Of a stretch of DNA of 64,000 nt, positions 973 to 21,800 are shown piece by piece. The translations under genes were made by a program, and so were the position numbers. The number at the start of each line of letters is the position of its first letter. Position 1 is the stretch's first letter. Source of the stretch: a virus (taxonomy: Duplodnaviria > Caudoviricetes); the IMG/VR virus record IMGVR_UViG_3300011977_000007, positions 46,264-110,263 of that record; one strand, 5' to 3'. Below the pieces are notes generated by a model. It was not told where the DNA came from. It searched no databases and saw only the letters and a program-made list of their open reading frames with translations.

Positions 973-2658
973 ATGGGAACAATTTTACAATTTAAATCAT
1001 GCGCATATGGCGGTGAATATACTGGTTATAATACTACCCCTACTAATATATATTATGGATCTATGTATACGCCTGATAAAATAGGCGCATATATTAAAGA
1101 ATGCTATAAAAATGATCCTAATATGGTAAACGTAGAGGGTATTGGATATGGATGGCAAAAATATACCGTTCCATATACATCTAAACTTAAATTTAGTGTT
1201 AGAGGAGCTGCTGGAGGAACCACATCAAGTGGCGCTGCTTCAATAGATCCAGTTACTGGTAAGGTAACTGGTAGCCTTAATAGACCTGGTAGAGGAGCAA
1301 AAATTGAAGGTGCGTGTTTACTTAATAAGGGTTCAATTATATATATCTTAGTTGGTTGTAGAGGTTGGTCATCTAATGGCACTGCTTGGGGTAGTGGTGG
1401 TGGAGGAGCATCTGTAGTATTATTAGATAATCCTTCTGGTGCTTATACATTTACGCCCGTTAATAGAAAAGTTGATGTATTATTTGTTGCTGGCGGTGGT
1501 GCTGGTGCATATGTATGCTCGAGAATAGATTCGAGTAGATATGGAAACGATGCCGATATAAAGAATGGAACCAGTACAGGGGCTGGAAGTTCTAATAAAG
1601 CAAGTGGTGGTGCTGGATTAACTGCTGGAACTGGAGGGGATGAAGGTAATGCATATGCTATATTATCTGGAAATCCAAGTACTACCTCTAGTCCATATTA
1701 TGGAGGATGGGGCGGTGGAGGAGTTTCATGGAATGGTGGTGGAGGAGGCGGTGGCTATAGCGGCGGAAATGCTACCGACTCTGGATTAAGTAATGGTGGA
1801 ACATCATATATTAACCCCACTCTATGTACTGAAATATTTAGAGGATATGCTACACTTGCACAAGATTCAAATAGAAATCTTGAGAATCCTTGGACTGCAT
1901 ATGGATTTGTAGAAATTGAGTTAGGTAGAAGCCCGGAGAAATATATTCTTGCGAAAGACTCTGATGGATATAAATATTTTAATGGTATTACGTTGCTCGA
2001 TAATACCACTAATGATTCCGGTAATGATACTTGGGAATTATTACCAGACCAGTCTTCTGTTCCAACACAAGATATTTATGAAACCTATGGTAAATATATG
2101 ATTACTAGCGCTAATGGATTACAGAACAAAGTAAGATTTCTTGTAAGTTCTAATGAGGAAGATGATACTATTGATATTTCTGGTAAAGTAAATAAAACTA
2201 TAGTAGAAACTAAAGATAATAATACATCTGGTATTGATACTATTAAGTCTATTACTTTTACCGGAAATACTGCTGGAGCTACAATTAAATTTGCCGTTTC
2301 TAAAGATAGCGGCGCTTCATGGCAAACTTATAGTAATGGTGTTTGGAAAGATATAGATGTTACTGATAAAGATAAGTTCTTAAATGATGGATGTTATCTT
2401 GATCAAATAACTACTATTCCTGTAAATGATTGGAAGGATTATCTTTCTAAGACATTAAGGTTTAAGTTCATTATTGATCAGAATGATACTACAGGAAATT
2501 TAATTAACGAAATTAAATTTAACGTAGACTTACTTGGATCATGGATGCATTTTAAAGAATCGCAAGCTCAGTATGAGTATATTTCTGATACTGAATTAAA
2601 GATCACTTTCTTAGAAGCTGGAGATTATAAAGTAAATTATTTGGATAAAATATCATAA
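973..2658 (+). CDS. glycine-rich (ALK/LTK-type Gly-rich domain) tail/adhesin protein
   Basis: GAAGG...GRGAKIEG...IYILVG..G...GGGGAS...VAGGGAG...GGGGGGYSGG...GGTSYI pattern; tail-gene context. Confidence 0.65.
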   Translation: MGTILQFKSCAYGGEYTGYNTTPTNIYYGSMYTPDKIGAYIKECYKNDPNMVNVEGIGYGWQKYTVPYTSKLKFSVRGAAGGTTSSGAASIDPVTGKVTGSLNRPGRGAKIEGACLLNKGSIIYILVGCRGWSSNGTAWGSGGGGASVVLLDNPSGAYTFTPVNRKVDVLFVAGGGAGAYVCSRIDSSRYGNDADIKNGTSTGAGSSNKASGGAGLTAGTGGDEGNAYAILSGNPSTTSSPYYGGWGGGGVSWNGGGGGGGYSGGNATDSGLSNGGTSYINPTLCTEIFRGYATLAQDSNRNLENPWTAYGFVEIELGRSPEKYILAKDSDGYKYFNGITLLDNTTNDSGNDTWELLPDQSSVPTQDIYETYGKYMITSANGLQNKVRFLVSSNEEDDTIDISGKVNKTIVETKDNNTSGIDTIKSITFTGNTAGATIKFAVSKDSGASWQTYSNGVWKDIDVTDKDKFLNDGCYLDQITTIPVNDWKDYLSKTLRFKFIIDQNDTTGNLINEIKFNVDLLGSWMHFKESQAQYEYISDTELKITFLEAGDYKVNYLDKIS

Positions 2659-2914: not shown

Positions 2915-3460
2915 ATGCAAGTAATAAAAACACCCACTGGATTGATTGCTGTTGATGAATTAGCACAATCTATGACTCAAACAGAGTATAATAATTTACC
3001 TGCAGATAAACAGAAGGTTGGTACTTATTATATTATAAGTGGCGATGGTAAACATATAGCTCTTATTATAAAAGATGGTGTTCCACTAGATTCACTTCCT
3101 GCTAATAATGCTGCATTTACACCACCTAGTGGTATGAGTTCAACTACAGTTCAACAAGCTATAACAGAACTTTATAATAATATGAAAAATACACATAAGT
3201 CTATTACTGCAGTGGCTCCATCTACTAATTGGACTGGCAGCGCTGCTCCTTATACTAATAATATTGCTGTTGCTGGAGTAACAGCTAATAATATAGTTGA
3301 AGTTGGGTTAAGTAATAATGCGAATGACGATCAAGTTAAAGCATGTATGAAAGCAAGTATTGCTAAAATAGAACAACAAAACGGAAGATTAATATTATAT
3401 GCTTATGGTACTAAACCTACGGTGGATATACCATTATCATGCGTTATAGTAAATAATTAA
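2915..3460 (+). CDS. short tail fibre/adaptor protein
   Basis: RBS AAGGA upstream; C-terminal ~70 aa (APYT...VEVGL..NANDDQVKACMKASIAKI...LYAYGTKPTVDIPLS) nearly identical to the C-terminus of the 10276..12444 fibre. Confidence 0.7.
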   Translation: MQVIKTPTGLIAVDELAQSMTQTEYNNLPADKQKVGTYYIISGDGKHIALIIKDGVPLDSLPANNAAFTPPSGMSSTTVQQAITELYNNMKNTHKSITAVAPSTNWTGSAAPYTNNIAVAGVTANNIVEVGLSNNANDDQVKACMKASIAKIEQQNGRLILYAYGTKPTVDIPLSCVIVNN

Positions 3461-3476
3461 TAAGGAGGAAAATATT

Positions 3477-4644
3477 ATGCCAATTATTAATAGACTTCCA
3501 ATCGGGGGGGGGGGCATCCTCTGAAGTAGGCATTAGTGACGGTAAAGGAATTGTAAATTTAAATATTTTTACACAAATGGATGAACCTACAAAGAAAGAT
3601 GGAATTTGGATTAAAACTAATCATAAATATCAGAGAATCATAATTAATAAACCTTATGTAGCATCAAATACTGAAACCGAAATATATTATGTACTAAATC
3701 CCGTACCATTTGACATTAGTTTTGCTCAGAAATATTCATGTCTGCTACATGGAAATATGTATGTTGTAGGTTATATATATAATTCTAATAATGATTCGTG
3801 GACTTTTACTAATGAGCCATATGGTGTGTGGTATCATAATGATATATATTATGCAACTTATTTGTCTAATGATGATTGGTACATATGTAGATATAATAAT
3901 GGCAATCCTGTAAAAATATGCAAATTCTTGGAGAGTAGTGATAGTTTCTATGCAGTTTATAATGATGAAATATATATTAGTAATTTTGAGAATAGCACAT
4001 ATTATTCAATGTTTGTAAAATTTAATGGTAGTGCATATACAGAACTTAATCCTAGCGATAGACCATCTGGTATTAGGCAAATAATATCTTATGGCGGATA
4101 TTTAAATATATTTACTTTAAATGAGCATTATATATATAATGCGGCTAATAATACTATAACGTATAAAACCTATCTCCCACGTACATATACAAATGGCTGT
4201 TGCGCAAAAGTTACGGTTCACAATAACGAGTTACATTATTGTGCATATGATTCACATTATAAATTTAATGATTCTTCCAGTTCGTGGGTACAAGTATCTA
4301 AATGCGATGGCTTACCTAGCGATATAGATTATTTGTATAGTGCAATTTCGTATAATGGAATTATTTATTTATTTACAGGTAAATATGATAAAAAGTTTAT
4401 GTGCTTAAAATCTCCATCAGTAGTATATGATCCTAATACTTTAATTTTGCACAAGAAGAATACATATACTGGTACATATCTAACAGCAATTGCTGATACT
4501 TCAGCGATTATCGATGATGGAAATAATAATAATCGCTTTGTTTCCAGTTTCGATGATTGCTATTATTTTGCAGATTCTGCATTTGATTGGACTGCACCGA
4601 TGTATTATGGTAATGGATCGCAATGGATAAAATTTAAAAATTAA
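3477..4644 (+). CDS. poly-G frameshifted receptor-binding/adhesin protein 1 (beta-propeller-like), out of frame as assembled
   Basis: AAGGAGG RBS, ATG 3477, MPIINRLPI then G11 (3504-3514) and TGA at 3522; G10 joins the leader to the 3577..4644 ORF; repeated Kelch-like YNxxIY blades. Confidence 0.8.
3504..3514 (+). repeat. poly-G tract G11 (contingency locus)
   Basis: CCAATC-G11-CATC in a very AT-rich genome. Confidence 0.9.
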
Positions 4645-4689
4645 TATAGAGGATTTATTATCCTCTATAAATTAAAGGAGGGTAATATC

Positions 4690-5890
4690 ATGCCAACAAT
4701 TAATAGACTCCCAATCGGGGGGGGGGGCATCATCTAGTGGTGCTGCCGGATTAAATATCTTTACTCAGATGAATGAACCTGAGAAGAAAGATGGTATTTG
4801 GATACAAACCAATAATCGATATGAAAAAATAATTACTGATGCTAGGATTATGGTTAATACAGATAATGGTGTTATAAGTAACAAAAGATATTTGCACTAT
4901 TCTGGCACTGGTGCCCCCTCTTATTATAATTACAGTATTGATTGTGAATATTATAATGGATCGGTATATGGATTGGTTGACTGCCAAAATGGTAGCGAAA
5001 CCATATGGGTATTGCTTGTACGAATAGATAATAATATAATTACCACTATAAATGAAAATAATGTGAAAATTAAATATATAAATAAATACATGGATAAAAT
5101 ATATCTTACATCCGGAACTGATAAATCTGATGGATACTCCGTCTCTTCATTATATGTATTAAATAGTCAAATGAATCAAGAAAATTTTTTATCAATACCT
5201 ATTAGTGATATATGTGGTGTTATTGAGTATAATAATACATTACTATTTATTGGTGCTTACAATGAGTATTGCCAATTTGATGGTAATTCATTCACAACTA
5301 AGTATACGACTACTGATAATATACATGGTAATTGCGTTGTATATAACGGATATATATACACATCATCGAATGTTGGTTTATATAGATGGGATACTAATAA
5401 TATTACTTTAGTATTATCGTCATTTAGAATGAATGGTCAAATGTGTGTATATAATAATAGTATTTATTATACATATGGTCCTGATTTATATAAATATAAT
5501 GCAATTGATAATTCTTGTACATTAATATCCGGTAATGTACTTGATCGAGAAGGTTCAATATTATTATGCACCGATGGATATAAATTATATATGCAGACAT
5601 TTAATGATAGTTGTGGTCCAGATGATAGTCTTATAAAAAATATAACTGCTAGAGTTGCCGATTATTCTTTAGCTAAACAAAATTTTGATAATAATACCGT
5701 AATATTACAGCGTGGAGAAACCGGAAATGGGAAATATCAAACTGCATTTGCTGATTTAACTAAAAGTGTTTCTGGCGTTAATCGTTTTATTTCTGGATTC
5801 GATGACGCTTGGTTTTATAGTAGTGGAGGATTTGAAAATTGTCCTATGTATTATGGTAATGGATTTCAATGGATAAGATTTAAAAATTAA
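4690..5890 (+). CDS. poly-G frameshifted receptor-binding/adhesin protein 2, out of frame as assembled
   Basis: AAGGAGG RBS, ATG 4690, MPTINRLPI then G11 (4717-4727), TAG at 4735; G10 restores the frame into the 4769..5890 ORF; paralog of protein 1. Confidence 0.8.
4717..4727 (+). repeat. poly-G tract G11
   Basis: CCAATC-G11-CATC. Confidence 0.9.
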
Positions 5891-5914
5891 AGAAGGCATT
5901 TTGCCTTCTTTTTT
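5891..5914 (+). terminator. rho-independent terminator
   Basis: AGAAGGCA-TTT-TGCCTTCT hairpin plus T run. Confidence 0.7.
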
Positions 5915-5939
5915 ATTATTAATTAAAGGAGGCGATAAA

Positions 5940-7250
5940 ATGCCTGTATTAAATAGAATAAATAGGATGCTTAGTTTTCCTATGAATAGTAGTAGTGGGG
6001 TAAGCGGGAAGTATTTTCTCGGTAGTGGACATATTTATAATTTTAATGACAATGGTACAATTACTACTATTAATGCCCCATCCAATATATCTTTTTCATC
6101 AGCAACAAAAAATGGTAGTTATATTTGCGCTTATCGTTATAGTGACAGCAACAGTTACTACATTTATCAATATAATGGTGATTCTATAACACAGACCCAA
6201 GATATTAGTGCTTATTTAAATAACTATAATTATAGTTCTAAAATAAATGATGGCAATACATATACAATTAATAGTATTAGTAGCCCTACATTTGCTAATA
6301 CTGATCAATATATTGTATTTGCAGTATCATTAAAATATGCTTCTACTCCTTACTTACATAAAGTATATATATGTGTATTGGAATTAAATAATGGCAAATA
6401 TGAAATGAGTAAAGTTATAGATTCGAATATGGGTGATCAAAATACTGTATCTACAGGCGTATCGCTACGCGGAGTATCCGACGATTTATCATATTTTTTC
6501 GTTAGTATCGATACCCCATCCGGTAATACATACGATTCTTCTTTATATATGATATATGCTAATTCGCCTAATGCATATACAGCATGGAAAATGGATACTG
6601 AAAGAGGAACACATATTACAGTTGGATATCCTGGCGGTTCTTCTAACTGGGATGAAATTCCTAGCTTTTACCTTGCGGATAATAAATATTTTATTACCGA
6701 TGTAACATCAAGTGATTTTATATACGTATATAAAATAAATGATCATAGCTCTATTACTAGAACATTTACAAGTGATTATTGCCCGCTACATACGTCAATT
6801 TCCATTAAAAATATTGAGTACATTAATAATGATTATATAGCGCATTATACGTATAGTTATAGTAGTGACAGTTACGATCAATATTATAATTGTATATATA
6901 GGTTACAGGATAGTATTTATAATTATCGTTATTCGTCGGAACGAGAAAATGTTAATATTGGATTTTATGATTATTATGTTATACTTATAGATGATTATAG
7001 TAGAAAGACATATTATAAGTCTTCAGACGGTAAATCGTTATACGTTAAAAATAATAAATATTATCTTAATGGTAGCGAAAATAATGTAGTGACCACTGGA
7101 GAATCGGAAGTTTCAACTATGATATATCATACTAATAGTGATAACTATAATGATAGAATTTCCATAGGAAGCTATTATGGATATGATGATAATAACGGAA
7201 ATTATAAATTCTTTAATATGGCAGCAAGCGTATACGGCGGCCCTTATTAA
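5940..7250 (+). CDS. receptor-binding/adhesin-like protein without poly-G (in frame)
   Basis: AAGGAGG RBS, ATG 5940; leader MPVLNR resembles the poly-G gene leaders; Tyr/Asn/Ser-rich. Confidence 0.65.
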   Translation: MPVLNRINRMLSFPMNSSSGVSGKYFLGSGHIYNFNDNGTITTINAPSNISFSSATKNGSYICAYRYSDSNSYYIYQYNGDSITQTQDISAYLNNYNYSSKINDGNTYTINSISSPTFANTDQYIVFAVSLKYASTPYLHKVYICVLELNNGKYEMSKVIDSNMGDQNTVSTGVSLRGVSDDLSYFFVSIDTPSGNTYDSSLYMIYANSPNAYTAWKMDTERGTHITVGYPGGSSNWDEIPSFYLADNKYFITDVTSSDFIYVYKINDHSSITRTFTSDYCPLHTSISIKNIEYINNDYIAHYTYSYSSDSYDQYYNCIYRLQDSIYNYRYSSERENVNIGFYDYYVILIDDYSRKTYYKSSDGKSLYVKNNKYYLNGSENNVVTTGESEVSTMIYHTNSDNYNDRISIGSYYGYDDNNGNYKFFNMAASVYGGPY

Positions 7251-7283
7251 ACATATTTAATTTAATTTTTAGGAGGATTAATA

Positions 7284-8247
7284 ATGTCAATTTTAAATAA
7301 ACTTCCAATTGGGGGGGGGGGCATCTGATAATACTTCCTCTGGAGAATTATTTACTAAAGATGCAATAATATCAAATGCATACTATTATTTTGATCAAAT
7401 GGTACATTGTGCAACTTCAGATACGATTGTATTAGGTTATCATTTTTATTCCGATAATAAATATTGGTTTAGAAGATATACATATAAAAATAAAGTATTT
7501 ACTATGTTACCTTCATTAGACCAGGTATGGAGCTCTGTAGCACGATATATCTTAGTATCAACAGATACTAGGGTATATCTTAATATAGCATCTGGATATA
7601 TATATGAATACGATAATAATGATTTAGAAAATTGGATTAATAGATATAATGATAATAATATATTTAATAGTGGGAATGGATGTGCATGTATGTTTAATAA
7701 TAATATGTATGTGGTTGTTAATGATTATAATTACGTTAATGGGAATTACGAATATAATACTAATATATATTCATATGATTTTACAACCTATACGCTGTTA
7801 TATTCATCTAGCTTTATTTATAATTATGCAGTACATCAGTGTATATATTATAACGGAGATATATATTTAAGATTTGGAAATCATTCTGGGGTAAAAGTAT
7901 TTAATATATTAAATCATAATAATATTACAGATTTAGCTACTCCAATGAAGTATATTGGATCGATATGCGTATATAATCAATGCATATACTTTATTAGCGG
8001 AGCACAGGTAGAAGCGCAGAGGCTTTTTTATAAATATGATGGAACTCAGTTTACATTAATATGTGATTTAACAAATCATATGAAATGTAATTATAGTTCC
8101 GATAGTATTATAATGGAAGTGATAAATAATAAATTATATCTTTTAGGAGATTGTATAGATAAAAGTGATAACCAAAATAGCGTATATATCTATAACTCTA
8201 CGGATGGCGATTCATTTACTAAAGTATCTTGGTTATGTAGTAAGTAA
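7284..8247 (+). CDS. poly-G frameshifted receptor-binding/adhesin protein 3, out of frame as assembled
   Basis: AGGAGG RBS, ATG 7284, MSILNKLPI then G11 (7311-7321), TGA at 7326; G10 restores the frame; Kelch-like blades. Confidence 0.8.
7311..7321 (+). repeat. poly-G tract G11
   Basis: CCAATT-G11-CATC. Confidence 0.9.
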
Positions 8248-8264
8248 TATTTTATAATTTTTAA

Positions 8265-8276
8265 AACAATTTAATA
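8265..8276 (+). promoter_or_regulatory. putative late promoter AACA-N6-TA
   Basis: AACA ATTTAA TA upstream of the 8325 gene. Confidence 0.5.
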
Positions 8277-8324
8277 AATAAATATTTTTATTTACAATCA
8301 AATGGTGAAAGGAGACTATTCAAT

Positions 8325-8615
8325 ATGGCTAAGATTGATAGTGGAAAAACTTTAGACAACAAGAAAATTGAGTATGAGATTCTTGACGATGGATATGATA
8401 TCTATTTAGGTGGAAATCTTTGGATTACTCAGCACGCTCAGTATGGAAAACCGATTGATCCTGAAGGAACTTACGAAGAGAATTGTAAGAAACAGATTGA
8501 ACAGATCACAACGGTTCCGGAACCAACTGTAACTCCACAGGATAAGTTACGTGCAGATGTAGATTATCTTGCACTTATCACCGGTGTTGACTTAAATGAA
8601 AATGTATTAGCTTAA
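8325..8615 (+). CDS. small tail fibre assembly-type protein (partner of XkdX)
   Basis: C-terminal TPQDKLRADVDYLALITGVDL motif typical of genes preceding xkdX. Confidence 0.55.
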   Translation: MAKIDSGKTLDNKKIEYEILDDGYDIYLGGNLWITQHAQYGKPIDPEGTYEENCKKQIEQITTVPEPTVTPQDKLRADVDYLALITGVDLNENVLA

Positions 8616-8629
8616 GGAGGAAATATATT

Positions 8630-8848
8630 ATGGCATTCACAGCAAGAGATTTATCAAAGAAATATTACCCAAGACTTTGGCCAATTTGTCGTTTGGTTGC
8701 TTTGGTAAAAGTAGGAAAATTATCTGAAGCTGATTATAAGGAGATTACTGGATTTACATATCCGGCTACATCAGCACCAACAGAGGAGTCAAAGGATACT
8801 AAGAATGATGCTTCTGAGACTACAGAAGATTCTAATAAGCAGAAATAA
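8630..8848 (+). CDS. XkdX-family protein
   Basis: KKYY..LW...L..LV..GKLSE.DYKEITG signature. Confidence 0.75.
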   Translation: MAFTARDLSKKYYPRLWPICRLVALVKVGKLSEADYKEITGFTYPATSAPTEESKDTKNDASETTEDSNKQK

Positions 8849-8862
8849 TAATTAAGAATAAA

Positions 8863-8894
8863 TATACTGGTGCAATATAATTTGCACCAGTATA
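8863..8894 (+). terminator. rho-independent terminator
   Basis: TATACTGGTGCAA/TTGCACCAGTATA hairpin followed by T-rich run. Confidence 0.65.
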
Positions 8895-8942
8895 CTATTT
8901 ATTTTTTATATAAAATAGGATGATTTTTAAGGAGGAAAGACT

Positions 8943-10134
8943 ATGCCAGTAATAAATCGACTTCCAATCGGGGGGGGGGGGGGCATCTGAATTAGGAATT
9001 TCCAACGGTAAAGGAACTGTTGGATTGAACGTATTCACTCAGATGGATGAACCTCAAAAGAAAGACGGAATATGGATAAAAACAAATCATACCTATCAAA
9101 ATGTGATGGTAAATCAACAGTTTGCTAATTATCAAGATGGTGTTTGGAGTGCAATTTGTCCATTGAATAATATAGGAAGGACTAAATTAGTTACAAATCA
9201 AGGTGCATTATATTTATTTAGCGATAATTATAAGTTATATCGCCTAAATGGATCAGCATTAGAATATATTTGTGATTATAATAGTAGAACTAATGTAATG
9301 GCATCTTATAATAATTCATTATATATTATTACTGCTTCTGTAAGTACCGGATATGTATTTAAATATAATGGTATTAACTGGGAAAGAGTATCTGAATTTT
9401 ATGGTACAACATATTTTGATAATTGTGTTACATTATATAACGATCAATTATGCCTTTTTTATGGTAATAGTAATCAGACAATAAGCAACGATATATATCT
9501 ATTTAATGGATCTACATTTACGCAATTATGTGATGCGACTTTTTACGGTAGTGATAATGATAAAATACTAATAAAGAGCATTATTACTTATAATGGTAAA
9601 CTATATATGTTTGGTAGTGTATCAAGATTTCCAGCAGATGGCTTATTTTACTTTGTTTTAAATGCAGGTAATAATTGGACAAAATCAACAGTGCCAGTGA
9701 CTGCAAATTCATTGTGCGTATGTACTTGCGTTTATAATAATGAATTATATTTGTTCTATGAGGACAGAGACACTACTTATAATGATATATACTATTGTAA
9801 ATATAATGGTGCATCATGGACGCTTATAGGGAAAGTTGGATATTGTGGTCAAGTTTCTTTAAATCAATATATGTACGGTGCTAGATCTTCATTATATAGA
9901 TATACTTTACCGCAAAAAGTATATAATCCAAATACTGTTATTATAAATAAGGGTGATTCTCAAAATGGTGTTTATTTAACCAATATGTTTGATACGTCTT
10001 ACATGGTTGGTAATAATAGCAATAGATTTGTATCTGGATTCGATGATTGTTTTTATTTTGCAGATTCTGCATTTGATTGGGGGGCTCCAATGTATTACGG
10101 CAATGGTTCTCAATGGATTAAGTTCAAGAATTAA
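8943..10134 (+). CDS. poly-G frameshifted receptor-binding/adhesin protein 4, out of frame as assembled
   Basis: AAGGAGG RBS, ATG 8943, MPVINRLPI then G14 (8970-8983), TGA at 8988; G13 restores the frame into the 9025..10134 ORF; paralog of proteins 1 and 2. Confidence 0.8.
8970..8983 (+). repeat. poly-G tract G14
   Basis: CCAATC-G14-CATC. Confidence 0.9.
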
Positions 10135-10275
10135 TTTCTACATATAAGTAATGACTTATACGTAAACAAAAATATATTATACAGTTTATATTATGTGTCA
10201 GATTACGTTGCAGCATATGCTTAGCCATATGCTGCATAAATATTGCAATATTTATGTAAAAGGATGTGATACAAA

Positions 10276-12444
10276 TTGTTTAGAAAAATTACTTATACTG
10301 ATAAAGAAGATATACTTGGCCTTGTTTCTATTGATAATAAAAATAAAGTAACAGCTCAAGATATGAATGATATCAAGAATGCTATTAATGATAATACTAC
10401 AGAATTAGATAAAATAATGGTGCATTTAGCAGGAGATACCATGACTGGTGCTTTAAATTTTAAAGCTAATACTTGGAATAAATATGGTTCTAATGTTGCT
10501 GTTGGAGCTATTAATACTGCCGGTACCCTAGCAGTAAAGGGATTGGATGGAAAAACTACTATTAGATTAGTTCCTAATGGAGCTACTGATAATAATGGTG
10601 TTACATGGGCAGCTAATTCTGCTACAGATTCTACTATTAGTGGCACTCTTAATGGTAGTTTTAAAGGCCCATTAGAAGGAAATGCTGCTACAACCACGAA
10701 GCTTCAAACTGCAAGAACCATTAATGATACTTCATTCAATGGTACTGCTAATATCACTACTGCTAAATGGGGAACTGCTAGAGATATTACATTAGGATTA
10801 ACAAAGAAATCTGTTAATGGTTCTACTAATATGGCATGGACTTTAGCAGAAATGGGCGCTTTACCAGCTGCCGGTGGTAGCATGACTGGCGATATTAAAT
10901 TTTCAAATGTTCAAACTGGAATGCGCGGTATTACGGGAACAGTTGGAGATAATGATAACTGGAGAGTAGTTGGTGTATCTACTGCATCGGATGCTGGATA
11001 TTTAGAAATTGCTACGGCTGATGGGGGAGACGAGCCAATATATGTAAGACAATATTCTTTTAAAGATAGTAATTCATTTGGAACTGTTGCTAGAACTGCT
11101 ACAATATTAGATGCTTCTGGTAATACTACTCTGCCCGGATTATTAACTGTTAATGGTATTCATTCATCTAAAGCTTGTACTTTTGATGATAATTTAACTG
11201 TTAAAAAGAATATTACAGGTAATGGTACCCTGTCAATAGACGGAGTTACAACTCTTAAGAATAATGCAAATATTAACGGTACTTTATCTGTTGATGGAGC
11301 TACAACACTTAAAAATACATTAAGTGTTACTGGAGCGCTTACTGTACATGGTGGTATAACCGGATCTTTAACCGGTAACGCTTCTACTGCAACTAAGTTA
11401 GCTACTGCTAGAACAATTTCTTTAACAGGATCTGTAACTGGTAGTGGTACATTTGATGGTAGTGGTAATTTATCAATAGCCACAACAACGAATCATACAC
11501 ATGCATATTTACCGACTGCCGGTGGTAGCATGACTGGAAATATTAATTTTAATGGTAGAGGTAATAATTATATAGGTGCTGGTCCAAGAGATGGTGCTGG
11601 CGGTGTAGGTGAAGAATTAAATAACCTTGTAATTTCAGCATGGTATGGTGTATCTTTTACAACATTATGCGATGGAAAATATAAAAATAAAAACGCTGTA
11701 AGTATTAATACTAGAACTGGCCATGTGTATGCTAATACTTATCATGGTGCTTTAAGTGGAAATGCTTCTACAGCTACAAAAGCAACGCAAGATTCAGCAG
11801 GACAACAAATTAATACAACTTATATTAAAGGATTATCTGTATCTGGTAGGACTATTACTTATACTAAGGGTAATGGCACTACAGGAACAATTACAACTCA
11901 AGATACCACATACCCTTTTAAAGCTATGACTATTGATGGTAGTTATACTACAAAATATCGTACACAAACAAAAGGTAATACTGCTAGTGGCGATTATATA
12001 ACCACCATAAGAAACGATACAGCTAATGTAAGTAACTCCCCCCAATATGGTTCCGGTTTAGCTTGGGGTAGGGGTGATACACATGGATATATGTATATGA
12101 GTTATAGCTCACCTGAAGCTTATGTTGGTGGTGGCAATGCTGATAAACTTAACTGGGTTAAAAAAATAGGATTTGCTCCGATAACCACTAATGTTATTGC
12201 ATATGCTGGTTGGTGGGGAGGTGGTGCTGCTCCATACACATGCACTATTAATATAGCAAATGTTACAGCAAGTAATGTTGTTGAAGTAGGTTTAGCTTCT
12301 AATGCAAATGATGATCAGGTTAAAGCATGCATGAAAGCAAGTATTGCTAAAATAACCCAAGCAAATGGTTCTATTACATTATATGCTTATGGGACAAAAC
12401 CAACGGTAGATATACCACTTTCTATAGTAATAATGGAAAATTAA
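10276..12444 (+). CDS. long tail fibre protein
   Basis: Repeated GNASTATKL.TAR.I and LP.AGGSMTG.I shaft motifs; C-terminal domain shared with 2915..3460. Confidence 0.85.
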   Translation: MFRKITYTDKEDILGLVSIDNKNKVTAQDMNDIKNAINDNTTELDKIMVHLAGDTMTGALNFKANTWNKYGSNVAVGAINTAGTLAVKGLDGKTTIRLVPNGATDNNGVTWAANSATDSTISGTLNGSFKGPLEGNAATTTKLQTARTINDTSFNGTANITTAKWGTARDITLGLTKKSVNGSTNMAWTLAEMGALPAAGGSMTGDIKFSNVQTGMRGITGTVGDNDNWRVVGVSTASDAGYLEIATADGGDEPIYVRQYSFKDSNSFGTVARTATILDASGNTTLPGLLTVNGIHSSKACTFDDNLTVKKNITGNGTLSIDGVTTLKNNANINGTLSVDGATTLKNTLSVTGALTVHGGITGSLTGNASTATKLATARTISLTGSVTGSGTFDGSGNLSIATTTNHTHAYLPTAGGSMTGNINFNGRGNNYIGAGPRDGAGGVGEELNNLVISAWYGVSFTTLCDGKYKNKNAVSINTRTGHVYANTYHGALSGNASTATKATQDSAGQQINTTYIKGLSVSGRTITYTKGNGTTGTITTQDTTYPFKAMTIDGSYTTKYRTQTKGNTASGDYITTIRNDTANVSNSPQYGSGLAWGRGDTHGYMYMSYSSPEAYVGGGNADKLNWVKKIGFAPITTNVIAYAGWWGGGAAPYTCTINIANVTASNVVEVGLASNANDDQVKACMKASIAKITQANGSITLYAYGTKPTVDIPLSIVIMEN

Positions 12445-12503: not shown

Positions 12504-12531
12504 AAACAGTAGGGCTAAGCCCCTACTGTTT
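12504..12531. terminator. bidirectional terminator between convergent genes
   Basis: AAACAGTAGGG/CCCTACTGTTT inverted repeat with A/T runs on both sides. Confidence 0.7.
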
Positions 12532-12981
12532 TACTTCTTCTATTATATCGGGATTCATTATTAATATACTATCGCAATCCCATCCGCATAATGAATAGTA
12601 CAAATCTCGGCATTCGCTAATATTTACTTCAATCGCATCATACTCTTTAGATAATTTTTCAAAATCCAAGAATATGAATATGCTAATACCCCTAAGTAAT
12701 GGTAATTTGTTTTGTGCCATTGGTAATCTAGATAGTATATCAGTATTATTGATATATAATACTTTGGCACCATCTTTTAATTTAAATCTAAATGCATCAT
12801 TCTCATCAATATCTCTAAATTCTTCATCAATGCACCAATCTTTCCACCCAAATTTAGCATCTATTCTAGATGCCCAGAACCCCCCTCTAGGTTTTGTAAA
12901 TAGTTGTATGTTTTCTATAGGCCTACACATTTCCTTACAAAATTTCTTATGCCCGTAATGAACGTATATTGGTTTTTCCAT
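12523..12981 (-). CDS. hypothetical protein (early gene)
   Basis: GGAGG RBS before MEKPIY; KP.GG.W and WDCDS motifs; preceded by the early promoter motif. Confidence 0.6.
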   Translation of the reverse strand: MEKPIYVHYGHKKFCKEMCRPIENIQLFTKPRGGFWASRIDAKFGWKDWCIDEEFRDIDENDAFRFKLKDGAKVLYINNTDILSRLPMAQNKLPLLRGISIFIFLDFEKLSKEYDAIEVNISECRDLYYSLCGWDCDSILIMNPDIIEEVKQ

Positions 12982-13011
12982 ATTAAATTCCTCCATTTCT
13001 TTTATTTATAT

Positions 13012-14629: not shown

Positions 14630-17600
14630 ATGGGAATTAATGCTCCAAAGCACGTAATACGAAAGCCTAAGCACATTACAAATCCGAAAGACATAGAATA
14701 TATATTGTCCTTAACAGAGGATGAGGCTGCAGCTAAAAATACGATAATGGATTTATTTGCCGATTTTGGAGACGGCCCAAGATTTAATACTTATGATATT
14801 ATAGAAATTCCTAAGGGATCTTATGGTAAAACTAAGAAGAATAAAAATCAATTTACAACTACAGTTGGATTATATGTATTTAATAAAGGCTGCATAGAAG
14901 ATATGTCTGATGTACTGGGATATATTAATGAGCCTATTACTGCTGATAAGTATGATGAAATAAATGAATTAGTATCATATGCTAAATTGGAAGATAAGAT
15001 CACTGTACAGCAGTTGAAAGATTTTATAATACAATCTCAGATTTATATGTCTTGTACTTCAGCATTATCACCATCTCATACAATGGTTCTTCTTTTAATC
15101 TCAGATAAAATTGAGGCTAGAAAGAAACAATTATTAAAAGATAAGTATGGCGAGGCTATAAAGAAGAAAGATATTAAAGCAATGGATGCTCTTGATAAAG
15201 AACTTCTTGATTATGCAAAGGAATTATTAAAAGATGATCCATCTGTTGATATGTTTAATTCTGGTGCTCGTTCATCATGGGGTAAAATTACTCAGCATAT
15301 ATAGTAATATGTGTGTTTCAATGGGGTTAATTGCAGGTAATACCTAAAGGCCTTACGCCAAAACGGAATTTGAAAAAATAAACGGTATGGTACGAAAGTA
15401 GAAAAAACGTAAGGATGCAATAAGCTGAAATAAAATTCTATTATAAATTATAATAGATGCTAAGTTGTAATAACAAGGGTTGTTCATGCAGCGAAATACC
15501 TAAGTCTATATAGATATGGTAAACGTTCAACGACTAGCCGATGACGTCGGCGGCTTTGCCTTAATGTAAAACCACAAGTTAATGGTGGAAGAAAAATCCC
15601 AGCCCTATAAATATAGGGATGACAAATAGTCTCTGCTACTACTTAATCGTAGTGACAACTTGAAATAATATAAGTTGTGTATATAGAGTTGCGTCTATAT
15701 ATAAAGATATAAAAATTATATAATATAAAAATTAAATATAGGTAGATAATTACAATTCTCAAAACACTTCATTAAATCTGTAATGAAAGGTGGTGAGGAT
15801 CGTGAGTAAAATAAATAACAATAAGCAATATTATAAAGGTCATAAATATAAAATATACCCAACTGAGGAACAAAAACAAAAGTTGGATAAATTTATAAAT
15901 CTTTATAGGTACGTTTATAATTGGGCTCTTGCTAAAGAACAAGAGATATATGAATCTTATAAAAATGGTGAAAGTGAAAAATCATTTTATACTTTCTTTG
16001 ATTTGTCAAAAATATTTGTACAATATAGAAATTCGCCTGAAAATAAATGGTTATTAGAATTACCCAACGGTACTGCATGTAATGCGATAAATGAATTGGT
16101 TACTGCATATACAAGGTTTTTTAATAATATTAGTGGGTATCCTAAATTTAAATCTAAGAAAAATTCTAAAAAATCATTTACAACTAGAAATGATAGATTT
16201 TATATAGATAAAAATACTGTAAAAATAGAAGGATTAGATCTAAATGATAGAATTCAATTAGGGTTTGATTCTGAATATAATAAAGATTCTGTTCATCATA
16301 ATACAGTTATATCTAAGGATACTATAGGTGATTATTATGTGTCATTTTGTACTATTGAAGAAAAAATAGAAATTGATAATTCTGATGGTGGGGTAATAGG
16401 TATTGATTTGGGAGTTAGAAATACATTAACAACATCTGTACCTATTGAAGGTGAATATTTTCATCATCAACCATTTAATAAGATTAGTAAATTAAAACGT
16501 AATATATCTAAATTACAAGTTAAAGTATCTCACGATCAATTACGTAGACTTAATGAAGCAAAACGTACGAAAACCAAGTACGAAGACATACCTAAAAGTA
16601 AACGAGAAATTAAGAGAGAAAAAATAATAAATAAGAAATACATTAAGATTCATAATATTAAAAATACATATTATGATACTATTATTAAACGTATTATGGA
16701 TACTAAGCCTAAGGCTGTTGTAATGGAAACTTTTGAATATAATAAAATCATACATTCACAAAAATATATGACTAAATATATGGTTGATACTTCATTTTAT
16801 GATATTACTCAAAAAACAAAGTATCAATGTAATAAAAGAAATATTCCATTTATTCAGGCACCAGTGCAATATGCATCATCCCAAATATGTAGTAATTGTG
16901 GAAATAGGATTAAAATAGGTAATAAAAAGATTTATAGATGCCCTATATGTGGTAATACGTTAGATAGAGATCTTAATGCTGCTTATAATCTCGAAGATTT
17001 TTATTATGACTATACTGGTACTAATAGATTAGTTGCTGTAAGTATAGCGTAATTCGTTTACACATTATTTAGGTTAAATAATGAATTTTAATGTACCGAG
17101 TTTTACTGTTCTCGGGATGTTAAGATCATTGAGAATTGTAAGTATATATCATTTATAAGCCCAACCAGCTTAACGTGTGGTATTCACACGGTTGATATAT
17201 GAATTATGATTTGTTGATATGATAAGTAAATCATAATTATATATTTACCTTTATAGGTTTACATATTATATGATTTTAAATACAGTAACAATTTTAAAAA
17301 CATGTATGTTTCTCGTGGTACTGTTAAATTGACCGATGGATCATTTGATATGGTTACTTCATCATATATATCTGGCCTATCAAAAGAAGATCTTGTTAAA
17401 GCAAATGATGCTGCTGTTGGTGGTCCTTATAGCCGTGCTGTAAAAACTAAAGAGGGTGGATATAATGAAAAGAAAATTCTCTATGGATTACAGCATGTAA
17501 AAGTATTACCTAAAGGATCTGATTGTGGAACTAATAGAACTATAGATGTGACTCTTACTAAAAAGAATATTAAGAATTGGATGTATAGTTTTGTTAAACA

Positions 17601-18845: not shown

Positions 18846-21800
18846 ATGTATGTAATTAAACGTAATGGAAAGCAAGCAGTTTTTGATAAAACAAAAATTG
18901 TAGTGGCAGTCTCAAAAGCCAATAAAGAAGTATTAGAAAATAAATTATCTGATGATCAGATTAATAATATTGCAGATACTATAGAATCAAGAGCAAAACA
19001 ATTTTCTAGAGCCTTAAATATAGAAGAAATTCAAGACATGGTAGAAAATCTAATCATGTATTATAATAAGTATGAGGTTGCCAAAGCATACGTATTATAT
19101 AGATATAAGCAGAAAGAAAATAGAGATAATGGCAATTTATTTAATAAAGTAAATGCAATTGTAAATAATGAGGATGAGGAAACTAAACAGGAAAACTCAA
19201 ATAAAGATTCGGATATTATATCTGTGCAAAGAGATTATATTGCCGGTGAAGTATCAAAGGCAATGGTTAGACAAGAGAAATATCCTAAATACATTATGGA
19301 TGCTCATGATGCTGGATTAATTCATGTTCATGATTGTGATTATAAAATTTGTAAAGAAACTAATTGCTGCTTGGATAATGTTGATGATATGCTTCAAAAT
19401 AGTACGGTTATTAGTAAAACAAAAATTGATACTCCACATACATTCCCTACAGCGTGCAATATTGCAACCCAAGCAATGGCACAAGTTGCATCTTCGCAAT
19501 ATGGCGGCCAATCTGTATCTCTTTACCATTTAGTAAAATTTGTTGAGGTTAGTCGTCGTGCTATTATTAAAGCTGTTGAAGAAGATCATGTACCAGATGA
19601 GTATAAACAAGAAGCTATAAATAGAAGACTAAGAAAAGAAATTAGTAGTGGCATACAGACTATTCAATATCAGATTATTACGCTTGCAACTACTAATGGT
19701 CAAGCTCCATTTGTTACTTTATTTATGTATCTTAATGAAGCAGAAACAGAGCAAGAAAAAGAAGACCTTGCAATGGTAATTGAAGAGGTATTAAAGCAAA
19801 GAATCAAGGGTGTTAAGAATAAAAAAGGCGTTTGGGTAACTCCTGCTTTTCCTAAACTTATATATGTATTAGAGGATGATAATATAACAAAAGATTCTAA
19901 ATATTTTTATCTTACAGAATTAGCAGCAAAATGTACTGCAAAGAGAATGGTTCCAGATTATATTTCTGAGAAGAAATTAATAGAATTAAAGTATCCTACA
20001 GAAAAACTCTTACATATTAAGGATCGTAGAGATCAGTGGGGTGATGAGCGTATTTGGGGGAGAAACGTATTTAAAAATGTCACTGATGAGGAATGCAATA
20101 AGCTTCAAAATATAGTTGATAATAGATTTAATAAGGAATATATTATTCCGGATGAAACTAAAGCTATTATCAAGAAATATGGATTAAAAATGGCTGATAT
20201 TGTGCCTAAAGCATACCCATGCATAAACAAAACCTGTGCCTAATATTAGTGATAATATTAGCAAACCTGTCTAAAAGGAGAAAGTCTTAATATACTGACC
20301 TGATATTAAGATAACTTACCTTACTAAATTTATATACCTATATTATTAGCGCATATATGAAATAATGAAAGGATAAATAATATGTGGGCTGATCTTATAG
20401 GATAAGAAAATATATAGATATATAATAAAAGTCTAACGACTATCGAAAACGCTGGTATTCGAGAAATACGATATCGGGAAGTGAGTAGAGTAGAGCCATA
20501 TATTATGATAGAACCATTTATATGGTAGGGTGATGGGTAGAGTAAACCCCTTTAAATCGAAAAGATAGGATGTCTTATTTTGGTAAAAGAAATAAGCATG
20601 TGATATAGTCTAGTTCAGCGATATAATACTCATTTAACGTTCTATGTTTAAGTATTATAGCGGCTGGGGGTGTAGGTCCTTCTTAACTCCTGATTACATC
20701 CATTATAAAACTTATGGAAGGTTTAATCAGTCAGTATGTACTATTAATTTAGTTGATGTAGCATTATCATCACAAAAAAATATTGATGAATTTTGGAAGA
20801 TATTTGATGAACGATTAGATTTATGCTATGAAGCATTAATGATTGATCATAATTATCTTATGAAAACACCATCTGATATAGCGCCAATGCAATGGCAAGA
20901 TGGAAATTTAGCTAGATTGGAAAAGGGGGAAACTATTGATAAATTATTAGTAAATAATTACAGTACAATTTCCTTAGGATATGCTGGATTATCTGAATGT
21001 GTTAGATATATGACAGGTAAATCCCATACAAATTCAGAAGCTAAGCCATTTGCATTATCCATAATGAGGCATTTAAATGATAAATGCGATGAATGGAGGG
21101 AAAAAACAAATGTATCATTTAGTCTTTATGGTACGCCTATAGAATCGACAACATATACATTTGCTAAAAATCTTCAAAAGAGATTTGGTATCATTAAAGA
21201 TATAACTGATCGTAATTATATTACTAATAGCTATCATATTCCTGTATTTGAAAAGATTGATGCTTTCAGTAAATTAAAATTTGAATCTGAGTTTCAGGAA
21301 TTATCTCCAGGTGGTTAAATGAACTTTTACATAGCCTTAAATAGCCACCTTGAAATTATGTGAACGCTTGATATGCGGTGTAAATAGTTTTATATTATTT
21401 GCTAACGGGGGACACTTAAGTGGAAATCCCGTGCCAAGCCTATAATATTTTATTATAGGAAGGTGTACAGACTAATTTACCCTGGATTTGATCACCAGTG
21501 GGAAGTGCATAGGGTGAGAAGCAGAGGTTACCTGCTACGCTAAGATATAGTCGGAAGGAGATAAAATTATGTATAAATGTGATATTTGTGGAAGAGAGCT
21601 AAAAAAGAAAAATATGCTACATGGATATAATTTATGCAGTAAACATATGCATCAATTATTAAATCATGGAAAATTTTTAGATAACAATCCAAGAACACAA
21701 AATGACTTAAATGGATATAAAATTATTGGTAAAATTGTAATTTTTGATTTATATGATGGAATATTATCAAATAAAATTAGTGAGTTTATTATTGATTTTG

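What the first reader, a model, noticed from the sequence alone, without database searches (positions are those of the whole stretch)
3477..10134. Array of poly-G-switched receptor-binding genes plus one constitutive member
Seen: four genes each have a strong RBS, a 9-codon leader, then G11 (3504), G11 (4717), G11 (7311) or G14 (8970) followed at once by a stop; removing one G fuses each leader to a 310-370 aa Kelch/propeller-like ORF. The fifth gene (5940) has a related leader but no G tract and is intact. Such G runs occur nowhere else in this AT-rich window. Known: Campylobacter Fletchervirus phages phase-vary receptor-binding proteins by poly-G slippage. Inference: a host-range contingency system (up to 16 on/off states) in a phiKZ/AR9-like jumbo phage. 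Standard gene callers would miss it by starting at internal Met/Leu codons.
Basis: partly seen in the sequence, partly recalled or inferred. Interest (0 to 1): 0.88.

Follow-up and report, generated by a model that had tools for sequence, protein, structure and literature searches.

The report
Poly-G switched tail-tip genes, gut jumbo phage
An uncultivated gut jumbo phage carries four paralogous tail-tip (probable receptor-binding) genes, each switched by a run of 11-14 G after codon 9. Near-identical phage genomes from other assemblies differ almost only in these run lengths, so this is a phage contingency (phase-variation) system of a known kind in a new setting.

Summary
Each follows AAGGAGG, ATG and a 9-codon leader. 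Each is one G too long, so translation stops 2-3 codons later, while a 311-390-codon frame continues.

These are the only G runs of 9 or more in the 110-kb contig.

A 170-kb contig matches the window over 20,134 nt with 0 mismatches and one gap, the g5 tract (G10, in frame, against G14). Relatives carry the same genes with G8 to G13 in all three registers.

Distant relatives (a siphophage, Clostridia genomes) encode the same N-terminal Gly linker with mixed Gly codons. GGG is only 4.3% of Gly codons here, so the homopolymer is derived.

The proteins fold as six-bladed Kelch-like propellers and sit in the tail-fibre module. In the siphophage the homologue follows Dit, Tal and a fibre gene. The phage is AR9/phiR1-37-like and the host is probably Clostridia.

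Not shown: within-sample tract heterogeneity (no raw reads), expression, or receptor binding. The "one G too many" register is over-represented and unexplained.

Poly-G phase-variable receptor-binding proteins are already known in Campylobacter phages. This scan noted the same stretch before on this same DNA.

The parts
2915..3460 (+). 181-aa protein just upstream of g1. Its last ~85 aa (3194-3457) form a domain shared with the end of the 722-aa tail fibre.
   Evidence: BLASTP gives 75% identity over 76 aa with the fibre C-terminus. The same domain ends the 402-aa protein directly upstream of the propeller gene in siphophage L033.
3462..3524 (+). g1 switch cassette: RBS 3462-3468, ATG 3477, 9-codon leader, tract, stop at 3522-3524 in the present register.
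3504..3514 (+). g1 poly-G tract, G11. It is in frame at G10.
   Evidence: Orthologues carry G11, G8 and a G9/G8 form in a variant context, including an in-frame state.
3505..4644 (+). g1 body frame (379 codons from the tract), a beta-propeller protein.
   Evidence: The in-frame orthologue P0103 is 391 aa.
4675..4737 (+). g2 switch cassette: RBS, ATG 4690, leader, tract, stop at 4735-4737.
4717..4727 (+). g2 poly-G tract, G11. It is in frame at G10 or G13.
   Evidence: It is G12 in run X1, whose laid contigs are otherwise identical to the window, and in X3. It is G13 (in frame) in the diverged counterpart in L029 (a separate orthogroup).
4718..5890 (+). g2 body frame (390 codons), followed by a terminator-like hairpin at 5889-5911.
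5940..7250 (+). g3, 436 aa, with no tract, always intact. It shares only the MPVLNR start with the others.
7270..7328 (+). g4 switch cassette: RBS, ATG 7284, leader, tract, stop at 7326-7328.
7311..7321 (+). g4 poly-G tract, G11. It is in frame at G10.
   Evidence: It is G9 in X3. It is G10 (in frame) in the diverged L029 counterpart.
7312..8247 (+). g4 body frame (311 codons). The propeller is related to the family, but it lacks the shared N- and C-terminal motifs.
   Evidence: hhalign gives probability 97%.
8325..8848 (+). Two small genes between g4 and g5: a 96-aa gene and a 72-aa XkdX-like gene. A terminator-like hairpin follows at 8863-8894.
   Evidence: PF09693 E 5e-6
8929..8990 (+). g5 switch cassette: RBS, ATG 8943, leader, tract, stop at 8988-8990.
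8970..8983 (+). g5 poly-G tract, G14. It is in frame at G10 or G13.
   Evidence: It is G10 (in frame) in L028, which is otherwise identical over 20 kb. It is G12 in L029 and X3.
8971..10134 (+). g5 body frame (387 codons), a six-bladed Kelch-like propeller.
   Evidence: AlphaFold2 model of the in-frame orthologue P0058 has pLDDT 74.
10276..12444 (+). 722-aa tail fibre protein ending in the shared ~76-aa domain (12214-12441).
   Evidence: PHROG tail-fibre hits; tblastn to T4-like gp36/gp37 fibres
12523..12996 (-). 157-aa gene of unknown function whose sense strand has only G6 here (12880-12885). Relatives carry a G9 tract at this site.
   Evidence: phrog_8582

Best explanation
The array is a set of contingency loci in the tail-fibre module of an AR9-like gut jumbo phage.

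Each of four paralogous genes encodes a beta-propeller tail-tip protein. Its conserved N-terminus is a 9-residue leader followed by a Gly linker, and here the linker is written entirely in GGG codons. Slipped-strand mispairing during phage DNA replication adds or removes G residues. A genome therefore either makes the full protein (G10 or G13) or a 14-15-residue dead-end peptide.

Different progeny thus carry different subsets of tip proteins, up to 16 combinations here and more in relatives with 7-8 tracts. The unswitched tail proteins, such as g3, are always made.

Shown: the tracts, the frames, coding constraint on both sides of the tract, length polymorphism between near-identical genomes including in-frame alleles, the propeller fold, and the tail-module position.

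Inferred: that the change arises by replication slippage at high rate within a population, that the proteins sit on the fibre tip and bind host receptors, and that switching changes host range.
For: 1. Tracts and frames are as described, and G runs occur nowhere else.

2. Both sides of the tract are coding.
- The leader peptide is conserved.
- The 20 codons after the tract differ mainly at third positions in the body frame: 235 synonymous against 117 non-synonymous codon differences. The other two frames give 41/328 and 10/346.
- The internal Met is not conserved (M, P, L, I or S) and has no Shine-Dalgarno sequence. This argues against internal initiation.

3. Tract length is polymorphic at the DNA level.
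- Window against L028: 20,134 nt, 0 mismatches, one gap. The gap is g5 G14 against G10, which is in frame.
- G001 against a 267-kb human-gut contig: 11,184 nt, 2 mismatches, one gap. The gap is a tract, G8 against G9.
- L029 has three of four genes in frame, at G8, G13 and G10.
- L031 has two of seven in frame. Its sister contig shows the opposite gene lengths at two loci.
- Logan contigs of other runs give g2 G12, g4 G9 and g5 G12.
- Databases hold full-leader forms of the same 90% clusters, for example P0058, P0103, P0117 and P0118.

4. The homopolymer is derived.
- Siphophage homologues encode the same linker as GGA GGT GGA GGA or GGC GGC GGT GGT.
- Clostridia genomes also use mixed Gly codons.
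- GGG is 4.3% of Gly codons in the window.
- Some relatives carry interrupted, in-frame tracts.

5. In the 98%-complete relative G001, all G runs of 7 or more lie in about 11.2 kb that spans the two ends of the linear record. These join into one fibre module only if the genome is circularly permuted.

6. Support for a tail-tip role.
- The model is a six-bladed propeller.
- The neighbours are tail fibres, an XkdX-like gene and an endolysin.
- In siphophage L033 the gene order is Dit, Tal, a 402-aa fibre, then the homologue.
- N- and C-termini are conserved while the middle is variable.

7. Precedent: Fletchervirus phages carry G7-11 tracts in receptor-binding protein genes, as cited in bioRxiv 10.1101/2025.10.21.683753 and PMC10579305.
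Against: - No raw reads were available, so heterogeneity within one population and the switching rate are not shown. Length calls at G11-G14 in assemblies can be wrong.
- The window, L028 and run X1 may come from one sample. Their differences could then be assembler choices among mixed reads. That would still mean the reads differ in tract length at that site, whether by real polymorphism or by sequencing error.
- In-frame states are under-represented and the 'one G too many' register is over-represented. Distinct orthogroup-by-length states are OFF+1 17, ON 9 (three of which are interrupted or N-gapped), and OFF-1 5. All four tracts in the window are OFF+1.
- No experimental or homology evidence ties the proteins to receptor binding. 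PHROGs gave nothing and Pfam gave only sub-threshold Kelch hits.
Confidence: 0.72

Rival explanations
1. Programmed recoding. The genomic register 'one G too many' is the designed state. The full protein is made from it by transcriptional slippage of the phage's own multisubunit RNA polymerase on the C-run template, or by +1 ribosomal slippage on rare GGG codons. DNA length changes would then be secondary noise.
For: All four window tracts, and 17 of 31 distinct states in relatives, are in the +1 register at lengths from G8 to G14. Runs of 11-14 exceed the length of an RNA-DNA hybrid (established knowledge of transcriptional slippage). GGG is a rare codon here. The phage encodes its own RNA polymerase.
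Against: The register is not conserved. In-frame and -1 registers occur at the same loci in identical or near-identical genomes, and interrupted in-frame alleles exist. The stop codon is not adjacent to the slippery run, and no stimulatory element was seen. No RNA data were available to test this.
Confidence: 0.12
2. Sequencing or assembly artefact. The true tracts are in frame and invariant, and homopolymer miscalling produces the apparent frameshifts.
For: Long G homopolymers are error-prone. Several contigs and scaffolds break or carry Ns exactly at tracts. Raw reads were not available.
Against: Independent assemblies from different studies agree on G11 for g1 and g4. The same kinds of assemblies also report in-frame G8, G10 and G13, so there is no uniform +1 bias. 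A 4-nt difference (G10 against G14) is not a simple miscall. In distant relatives the linker is written in mixed codons. A 3-4-fold run of the rarest Gly codon in every paralogue therefore needs an explanation even if individual length calls are wrong.
Confidence: 0.05
3. The switch is real, but the proteins are not receptor-binding proteins. They could be fibre assembly factors, decoration proteins or glycan-degrading enzymes. Switching would then tune something other than host range.
For: The function is inferred only. The propeller fold is generic and also matches sialidases and endosialidases. There are no family annotations.
Against: The position after Dit, Tal and a fibre gene in a siphophage. 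The modular pattern of conserved ends and a variable centre. The adjacency to fibre genes carrying a shared C-terminal domain in both phage types.
Confidence: 0.15
4. The four genes are decaying pseudogenes in this phage.
For: All four are out of frame in the window.
Against: The frames stay open for 311-390 codons in a 29% GC genome. The only lesion is at the tract. Substitutions are mostly synonymous. In-frame alleles of the same genes exist in identical backgrounds.
Confidence: 0.02

Closest known systems
Poly-G phase-variable receptor-binding proteins of Campylobacter Fletchervirus phages (Sorensen et al. 2021, Cell Rep 35:109214; cited in bioRxiv 10.1101/2025.10.21.683753 and PMC10579305; the paper itself was not held)
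   Same: G tracts of about 7-11 inside phage tail or receptor-binding genes, giving on/off expression and mixed phage populations.
   Different: There is no sequence similarity (tblastn of P0058 against 50,697 phage records found nothing). Here 4-8 paralogous genes each carry a repeated RBS-leader-tract cassette at codon 10. The tracts reach G14. The phage is an AR9-like jumbo phage and the host is probably a Gram-positive anaerobe. No experiment exists.
Contingency loci of coliphages T2 and T4 (Gomez, Barrick and Waters 2025, bioRxiv 10.1101/2025.10.21.683753)
   Same: Short repeats in phage genes that mutate reversibly by polymerase slippage, read as bet-hedging.
   Different: Those repeats are shorter, scattered over all gene classes, and reported as under-represented in tail fibre genes. 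Here long tracts are confined to the fibre module.
Bacterial contingency loci (poly-G tracts of Campylobacter, Neisseria and Haemophilus surface genes; own knowledge, and PMC10877375)
   Same: A homopolymer near the 5' end of a surface-structure gene, with three registers of which one is in frame.
   Different: These tracts are carried by a virus with its own replication genes. In Clostridia, phase variation is better known through invertible DNA (own knowledge).
Other phage tropism switches: Mu Gin / P1 Cin invertible fibre segments and Bordetella BPP-1 diversity-generating retroelement (cited in PMC10579305)
   Same: One phage genome yields progeny with alternative receptor-binding ends.
   Different: Those use a recombinase or a reverse transcriptase. 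This one needs no dedicated enzyme, only slippage.
T-even gp38-type tip adhesins (own knowledge; Dunne et al. 2018 cited in PMC10579305)
   Same: A separate small protein encoded next to the distal fibre gene, thought to cap the fibre tip and set host range.
   Different: The fold is different (propeller against polyglycine sandwich). Binding to the fibre is not shown here.

Membership tests
Phage poly-G contingency (phase-variable) loci | Homopolymeric G tract of 7 or more inside the coding region, far beyond chance | tested here: met
   G11 three times and G14 once; 0.15 G8 matches expected from shuffles. They are the only G runs of 9 or more in 110 kb.
Phage poly-G contingency (phase-variable) loci | A tract length change of 1 nt switches between a full-length product and early termination | tested here: met
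   Frame analysis. Coding constraint in the leader frame before the tract and in the body frame after it.
Phage poly-G contingency (phase-variable) loci | Tract length is polymorphic among otherwise near-identical genomes, including in-frame alleles | tested here: met
   Window against L028: 0 mismatches in 20,134 nt, with G14 against G10. L011 against L027: G8 against G9.
Phage poly-G contingency (phase-variable) loci | High-rate reversible switching within one population (read-level length spectrum, mutation rate) | not testable with these tools
   Only Logan contigs were served, with no raw reads.
Phage poly-G contingency (phase-variable) loci | The switched product is a receptor-binding protein that changes adsorption or host range | not testable with these tools
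   Only context and fold are available.
Fletchervirus receptor-binding protein family (sequence homology) | Detectable sequence similarity to known phage receptor-binding proteins | tested here: not met
   No tblastn match in 50,697 phage records. No PHROG hit.
Kelch-type beta-propeller | Pfam Kelch models above the gathering score | tested here: not met
   PF24681 scored 32 bits against a cut-off of 50. Kelch_2 scored 21.0 against 21.3.
Kelch-type beta-propeller | Six-bladed all-beta propeller fold | tested here: met
   AlphaFold2 core pLDDT is about 70-94, mostly above 80. Foldseek probability is 1.0 to Kelch domains and sialidase propellers, with target-normalised TM-score up to 0.67.
Programmed transcriptional or ribosomal slippage genes (dnaX / IS type) | The out-of-frame genomic register is fixed across relatives | tested here: not met
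   All three registers occur at orthologous tracts.
Programmed transcriptional or ribosomal slippage genes (dnaX / IS type) | mRNA or protein heterogeneity from one DNA length | not testable with these tools
   No RNA holder was listed.
AR9 / PBS1 / phiR1-37-like jumbo phages | Split multisubunit RNA polymerase genes and a genome above 200 kb | tested here: met
   The beta-prime fragment matches phiR1-37 (31% identity, E 4e-20), AR9 and PBS1 and phrog_2987. The relative G001 is 265,692 bp and 98% complete.

The most novel reading that the evidence does not exclude
The excess of the 'one G too many' register is selected. From that register the phage's own RNA polymerase, or ribosomes stalled on rare GGG codons, would slip often enough to give a low, tunable level of each tip protein. 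DNA slippage (coarse on/off) and RNA or ribosome slippage (fine dosage) would then act on the same tract, and virions would carry graded mixtures of tips rather than binary sets.
Probability: 0.12. Interest if true: 0.8.

Novelty: new variant of a known kind. Interest (0 to 1): 0.62.

Why it matters
- It extends poly-G phase variation of phage host-recognition genes from Campylobacter phages to uncultivated AR9-like jumbo phages. These phages occur in human and livestock guts (pig, bovine) and probably infect Clostridia.
- It shows a multi-gene, cassette-like form: 4-8 switchable paralogues that share one RBS-leader-tract module.
- It explains why gene callers truncate these genes and why assemblies break there.
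- It gives a concrete, testable example of bet-hedging on host range in the gut virome.
- The register bias offers a way to ask whether DNA-level and RNA-level slippage cooperate.

Tried and rejected
**Searches that found nothing useful**
- Megablast of the region against phage records: no match.
- Protein-guided scan of viral contigs with P0005: no relative.
- The single metagenome-contig scan with the leader-tract pattern returned only chance G6-G7 hits in unrelated DNA.
- PHROGs gave no family for any of the five proteins.
- The Sorensen 2021 paper is not held. Its content is cited second-hand.
- Literature searches found no report of this system in gut jumbo phages.

**Reads**
- No RNA holder was listed.
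- All runs are kept as Logan contigs, so no tract-length histograms could be made.
- Contig breaks at the g4 and g5 tracts in X1 are confounded by a second strain in that run (half depth over g4, two alleles at 8444-8560). I did not use them as evidence.

**Complex prediction**
- I tested the shared fibre C-terminal domain against the first 64 residues of the in-frame g5 orthologue. The result was 'no answer'.

**Explanations rejected**
- Internal initiation at the Met near codon 30. That Met is not conserved and has no Shine-Dalgarno sequence.
- A fixed 3n+2 register as proof of programmed slippage. The register varies in relatives.
- g3 as a homologous 'member' of the family. hhalign probability is 6%.
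- Poly-G in the siphophage lineage. P0082 looked like an out-of-frame call, but its DNA has mixed Gly codons and was simply called from an internal ATG.
Full report
**1. Observation**

The window is bases 46264-110263 of a 110,263-bp IMG/VR viral contig. CheckV estimates it as 35% complete. The window has about 29% GC.

| Gene | Tract | Length | ATG |
|---|---|---|---|
| g1 | 3504-3514 | G11 | 3477 |
| g2 | 4717-4727 | G11 | 4690 |
| g4 | 7311-7321 | G11 | 7284 |
| g5 | 8970-8983 | G14 | 8943 |

- G8 matches numbered 19 (overlapping) against 0.15 expected from shuffles.
- The window's next longest G or C run is 6, and A/T runs stop at 8.
- The whole contig has no other G run of 9 or more.
- Each tract follows AAGGAGG, an ATG and nine codons. 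In that frame a stop follows 2-3 codons after the tract.
- The long frame is reached by removing one G.
- RBS, leader and tract form a 61-nt direct repeat in four copies.
- The fifth gene, 5940-7250, is intact and has no tract.

**2. Both sides of the tract are translated**

- The leader peptide is conserved in 26 genes from seven loci.
- The 20 codons after the tract, upstream of the internal Met, differ mostly at third positions in the body frame. There are 235 synonymous against 117 non-synonymous codon differences. The other two frames give 41/328 and 10/346.
- The internal Met that gene callers use is M, P, L, I or S in relatives and has no Shine-Dalgarno sequence. Internal initiation is therefore not the conserved route.
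- Database entries confirm the miscalling. The window's own g5 is stored as a 363-aa product starting at that Met. Some relatives were called through the shifted leader frame.

**3. Is the tract length really variable?**

The leader-tract pattern led to a 265,692-bp, 98%-complete relative, G001. Protein look-ups led to further contigs from pig, human and other gut assemblies.

- **L028** (170-kb scaffold) matches the window over 20,134 nt with no mismatch and one gap. The gap is the g5 tract, G10 and in frame, against G14 in the window.
- **G001 and a 267-kb human-gut contig** differ over 11,184 nt by two substitutions and one gap. The gap is again a tract, G8 against G9.
- **L029** has G8, G13 and G10, all in frame, and G12.
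- **L031** has seven gated genes, two of them in frame. Its sister contig has the opposite gene lengths at two loci.
- **Logan contigs.** Those of the best-holding run, which are identical to the window over what was laid, give g2 as G12. A 95% relative gives g2 G12, g4 G9 and g5 G12.
- **Protein clusters at 90% identity** contain both short calls and full-leader forms of the same gene.
- Contigs and scaffolds often end, or carry Ns, exactly at tracts.

Length therefore varies at the DNA level among near-identical genomes, in all three registers.

Two limits apply. I had no raw reads, so heterogeneity within one population is not shown. The window, L028 and the best run may also be one sample assembled three times.

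**4. The homopolymer is derived**

- A 35-kb siphophage contig and its relatives encode the same N-terminus (leader, four Gly) with GGA GGT GGA GGA or GGC GGC GGT GGT.
- Clostridia genomes and MAGs carry the N-terminal motif with mixed Gly codons.
- In the window, GGG is 4.3% of 555 Gly codons.
- Some jumbo-phage alleles have interrupted, in-frame tracts.
- In G001 every G run of 7 or more lies in about 11.2 kb that spans the two ends of the linear record. These form one fibre module only if the genome is circularly permuted.
- Two of those runs are in other small genes. One is the orthologue of window gene 12523-12996, where the window has only G6.

**5. What the proteins are**

- Pfam gives only sub-threshold Kelch hits and PHROGs gives nothing.
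- An AlphaFold2 model of the in-frame g5 orthologue is an all-beta six-bladed propeller, with core pLDDT about 70-94, mostly above 80.
- The model matches Kelch domains, bacterial sialidases and phage endosialidase propellers. It also matches Kelch-like structural proteins of other jumbo phages.
- g1, g2 and g5 share about 50 N-terminal and 60 C-terminal residues around a divergent centre.
- g4 shares only the leader and the propeller. g3 shares only six residues.
- Neighbours are tail-fibre proteins, a glycine-rich-domain protein, an XkdX-like gene and a CHAP endolysin.
- In the siphophage the homologue follows Dit, Tal and a 402-aa protein.
- That 402-aa protein ends in the same roughly 85-aa domain that ends the 181-aa protein upstream of g1 and the 722-aa fibre downstream of g5.
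- This conserved pairing suggests the propellers attach to fibre ends. A complex prediction gave no answer.

**6. Phage and host**

- A beta-prime fragment matches phiR1-37, AR9, PBS1 and Fusobacterium jumbo phages.
- The endolysin type, the XkdX-like gene, NrdD and the relatives in Clostridia genomes point to an anaerobic Firmicute host.
- Holders are animal and human gut samples.

**7. Mechanism and rivals**

The best reading is replication slippage giving on/off expression of alternative tail-tip proteins, that is, bet-hedging on host recognition.

The main rival is programmed slippage from a fixed +1 register. I saw this register pattern, and other first-stage notes on this same DNA raised it as well. 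The fixed register does not hold in relatives. A bias does remain: distinct states are OFF+1 17, ON 9 (three interrupted or N-gapped) and OFF-1 5, plus three or four more OFF-1 states from Logan contigs. Possible causes are mutational bias, selection against expression, or leaky RNA-level slippage. I could not separate these.

A pure artefact is unlikely. Independent assemblies agree on many lengths, and they also report in-frame lengths.

**8. Novelty**

Poly-G phase-variable receptor-binding proteins are known in Campylobacter Fletchervirus phages. Phage contingency loci were recently described in T-even phages. I found no report of this family or of such an array in gut jumbo phages. There is no sequence similarity to cultured phages. 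I rate it a new variant of a known kind.

Noticed in passing
window 12523-12996 (-), G6 at 12880-12885: A 157-aa gene of unknown function (phrog_8582). It carries a G9 tract at codon ~36 in relatives G001, L027 and L029, out of frame in G001 and L027. In the window and L028 it has only an interrupted G6. It is a second, unrelated gene family under the same kind of switch.
   Followed up: partly
L012:7260-7607 (G001, just upstream of its first gated gene): A small gene with a 21-codon leader, a G11 tract (7324-7334) and a 91-codon continuation in another register. It has no counterpart in the window.
   Followed up: partly
window 3194-3457 and 12214-12441; L033:9729-9983: The same ~76-88-aa C-terminal domain ends the 181-aa protein upstream of g1, the 722-aa tail fibre, and the 402-aa protein just upstream of the propeller gene in a siphophage. 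It is a candidate docking partner for the propeller proteins.
   Followed up: partly
window 973-2658: A 561-aa protein with an ALK/LTK-type glycine-rich domain (PF12810, E 2e-10) in the fibre module. It may be a further adhesin-like tail protein.
   Followed up: no
window 15790-17052: A TnpB-like gene (OrfB_IS605 HTH and Cas12f1-like TNB domains; phrog_506 transposase). It lies between the region just downstream of the endolysin gene and the NrdD gene.
   Followed up: no
window 18846-20243: The NrdD-like ORF covers only about the first half of the family profile (positions 4-380 of 718). The gene may be split or interrupted.
   Followed up: no
window 4518-4645 / 10008-10135 and 3470-3652 / 8936-9118; run X5 joints: The 5' and 3' ends of the propeller genes are 75-92% identical between paralogues. 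A related phage in run X5 has the cassettes in a different order and number. This suggests recombination between the conserved ends.
   Followed up: partly
G001 and L027 contig ends; L024:13057-13066: Two independent ~265-kb assemblies begin or end inside poly-G tracts, and a pig-gut scaffold has a run of N at a tract. The tracts are assembly breakpoints.
   Followed up: partly
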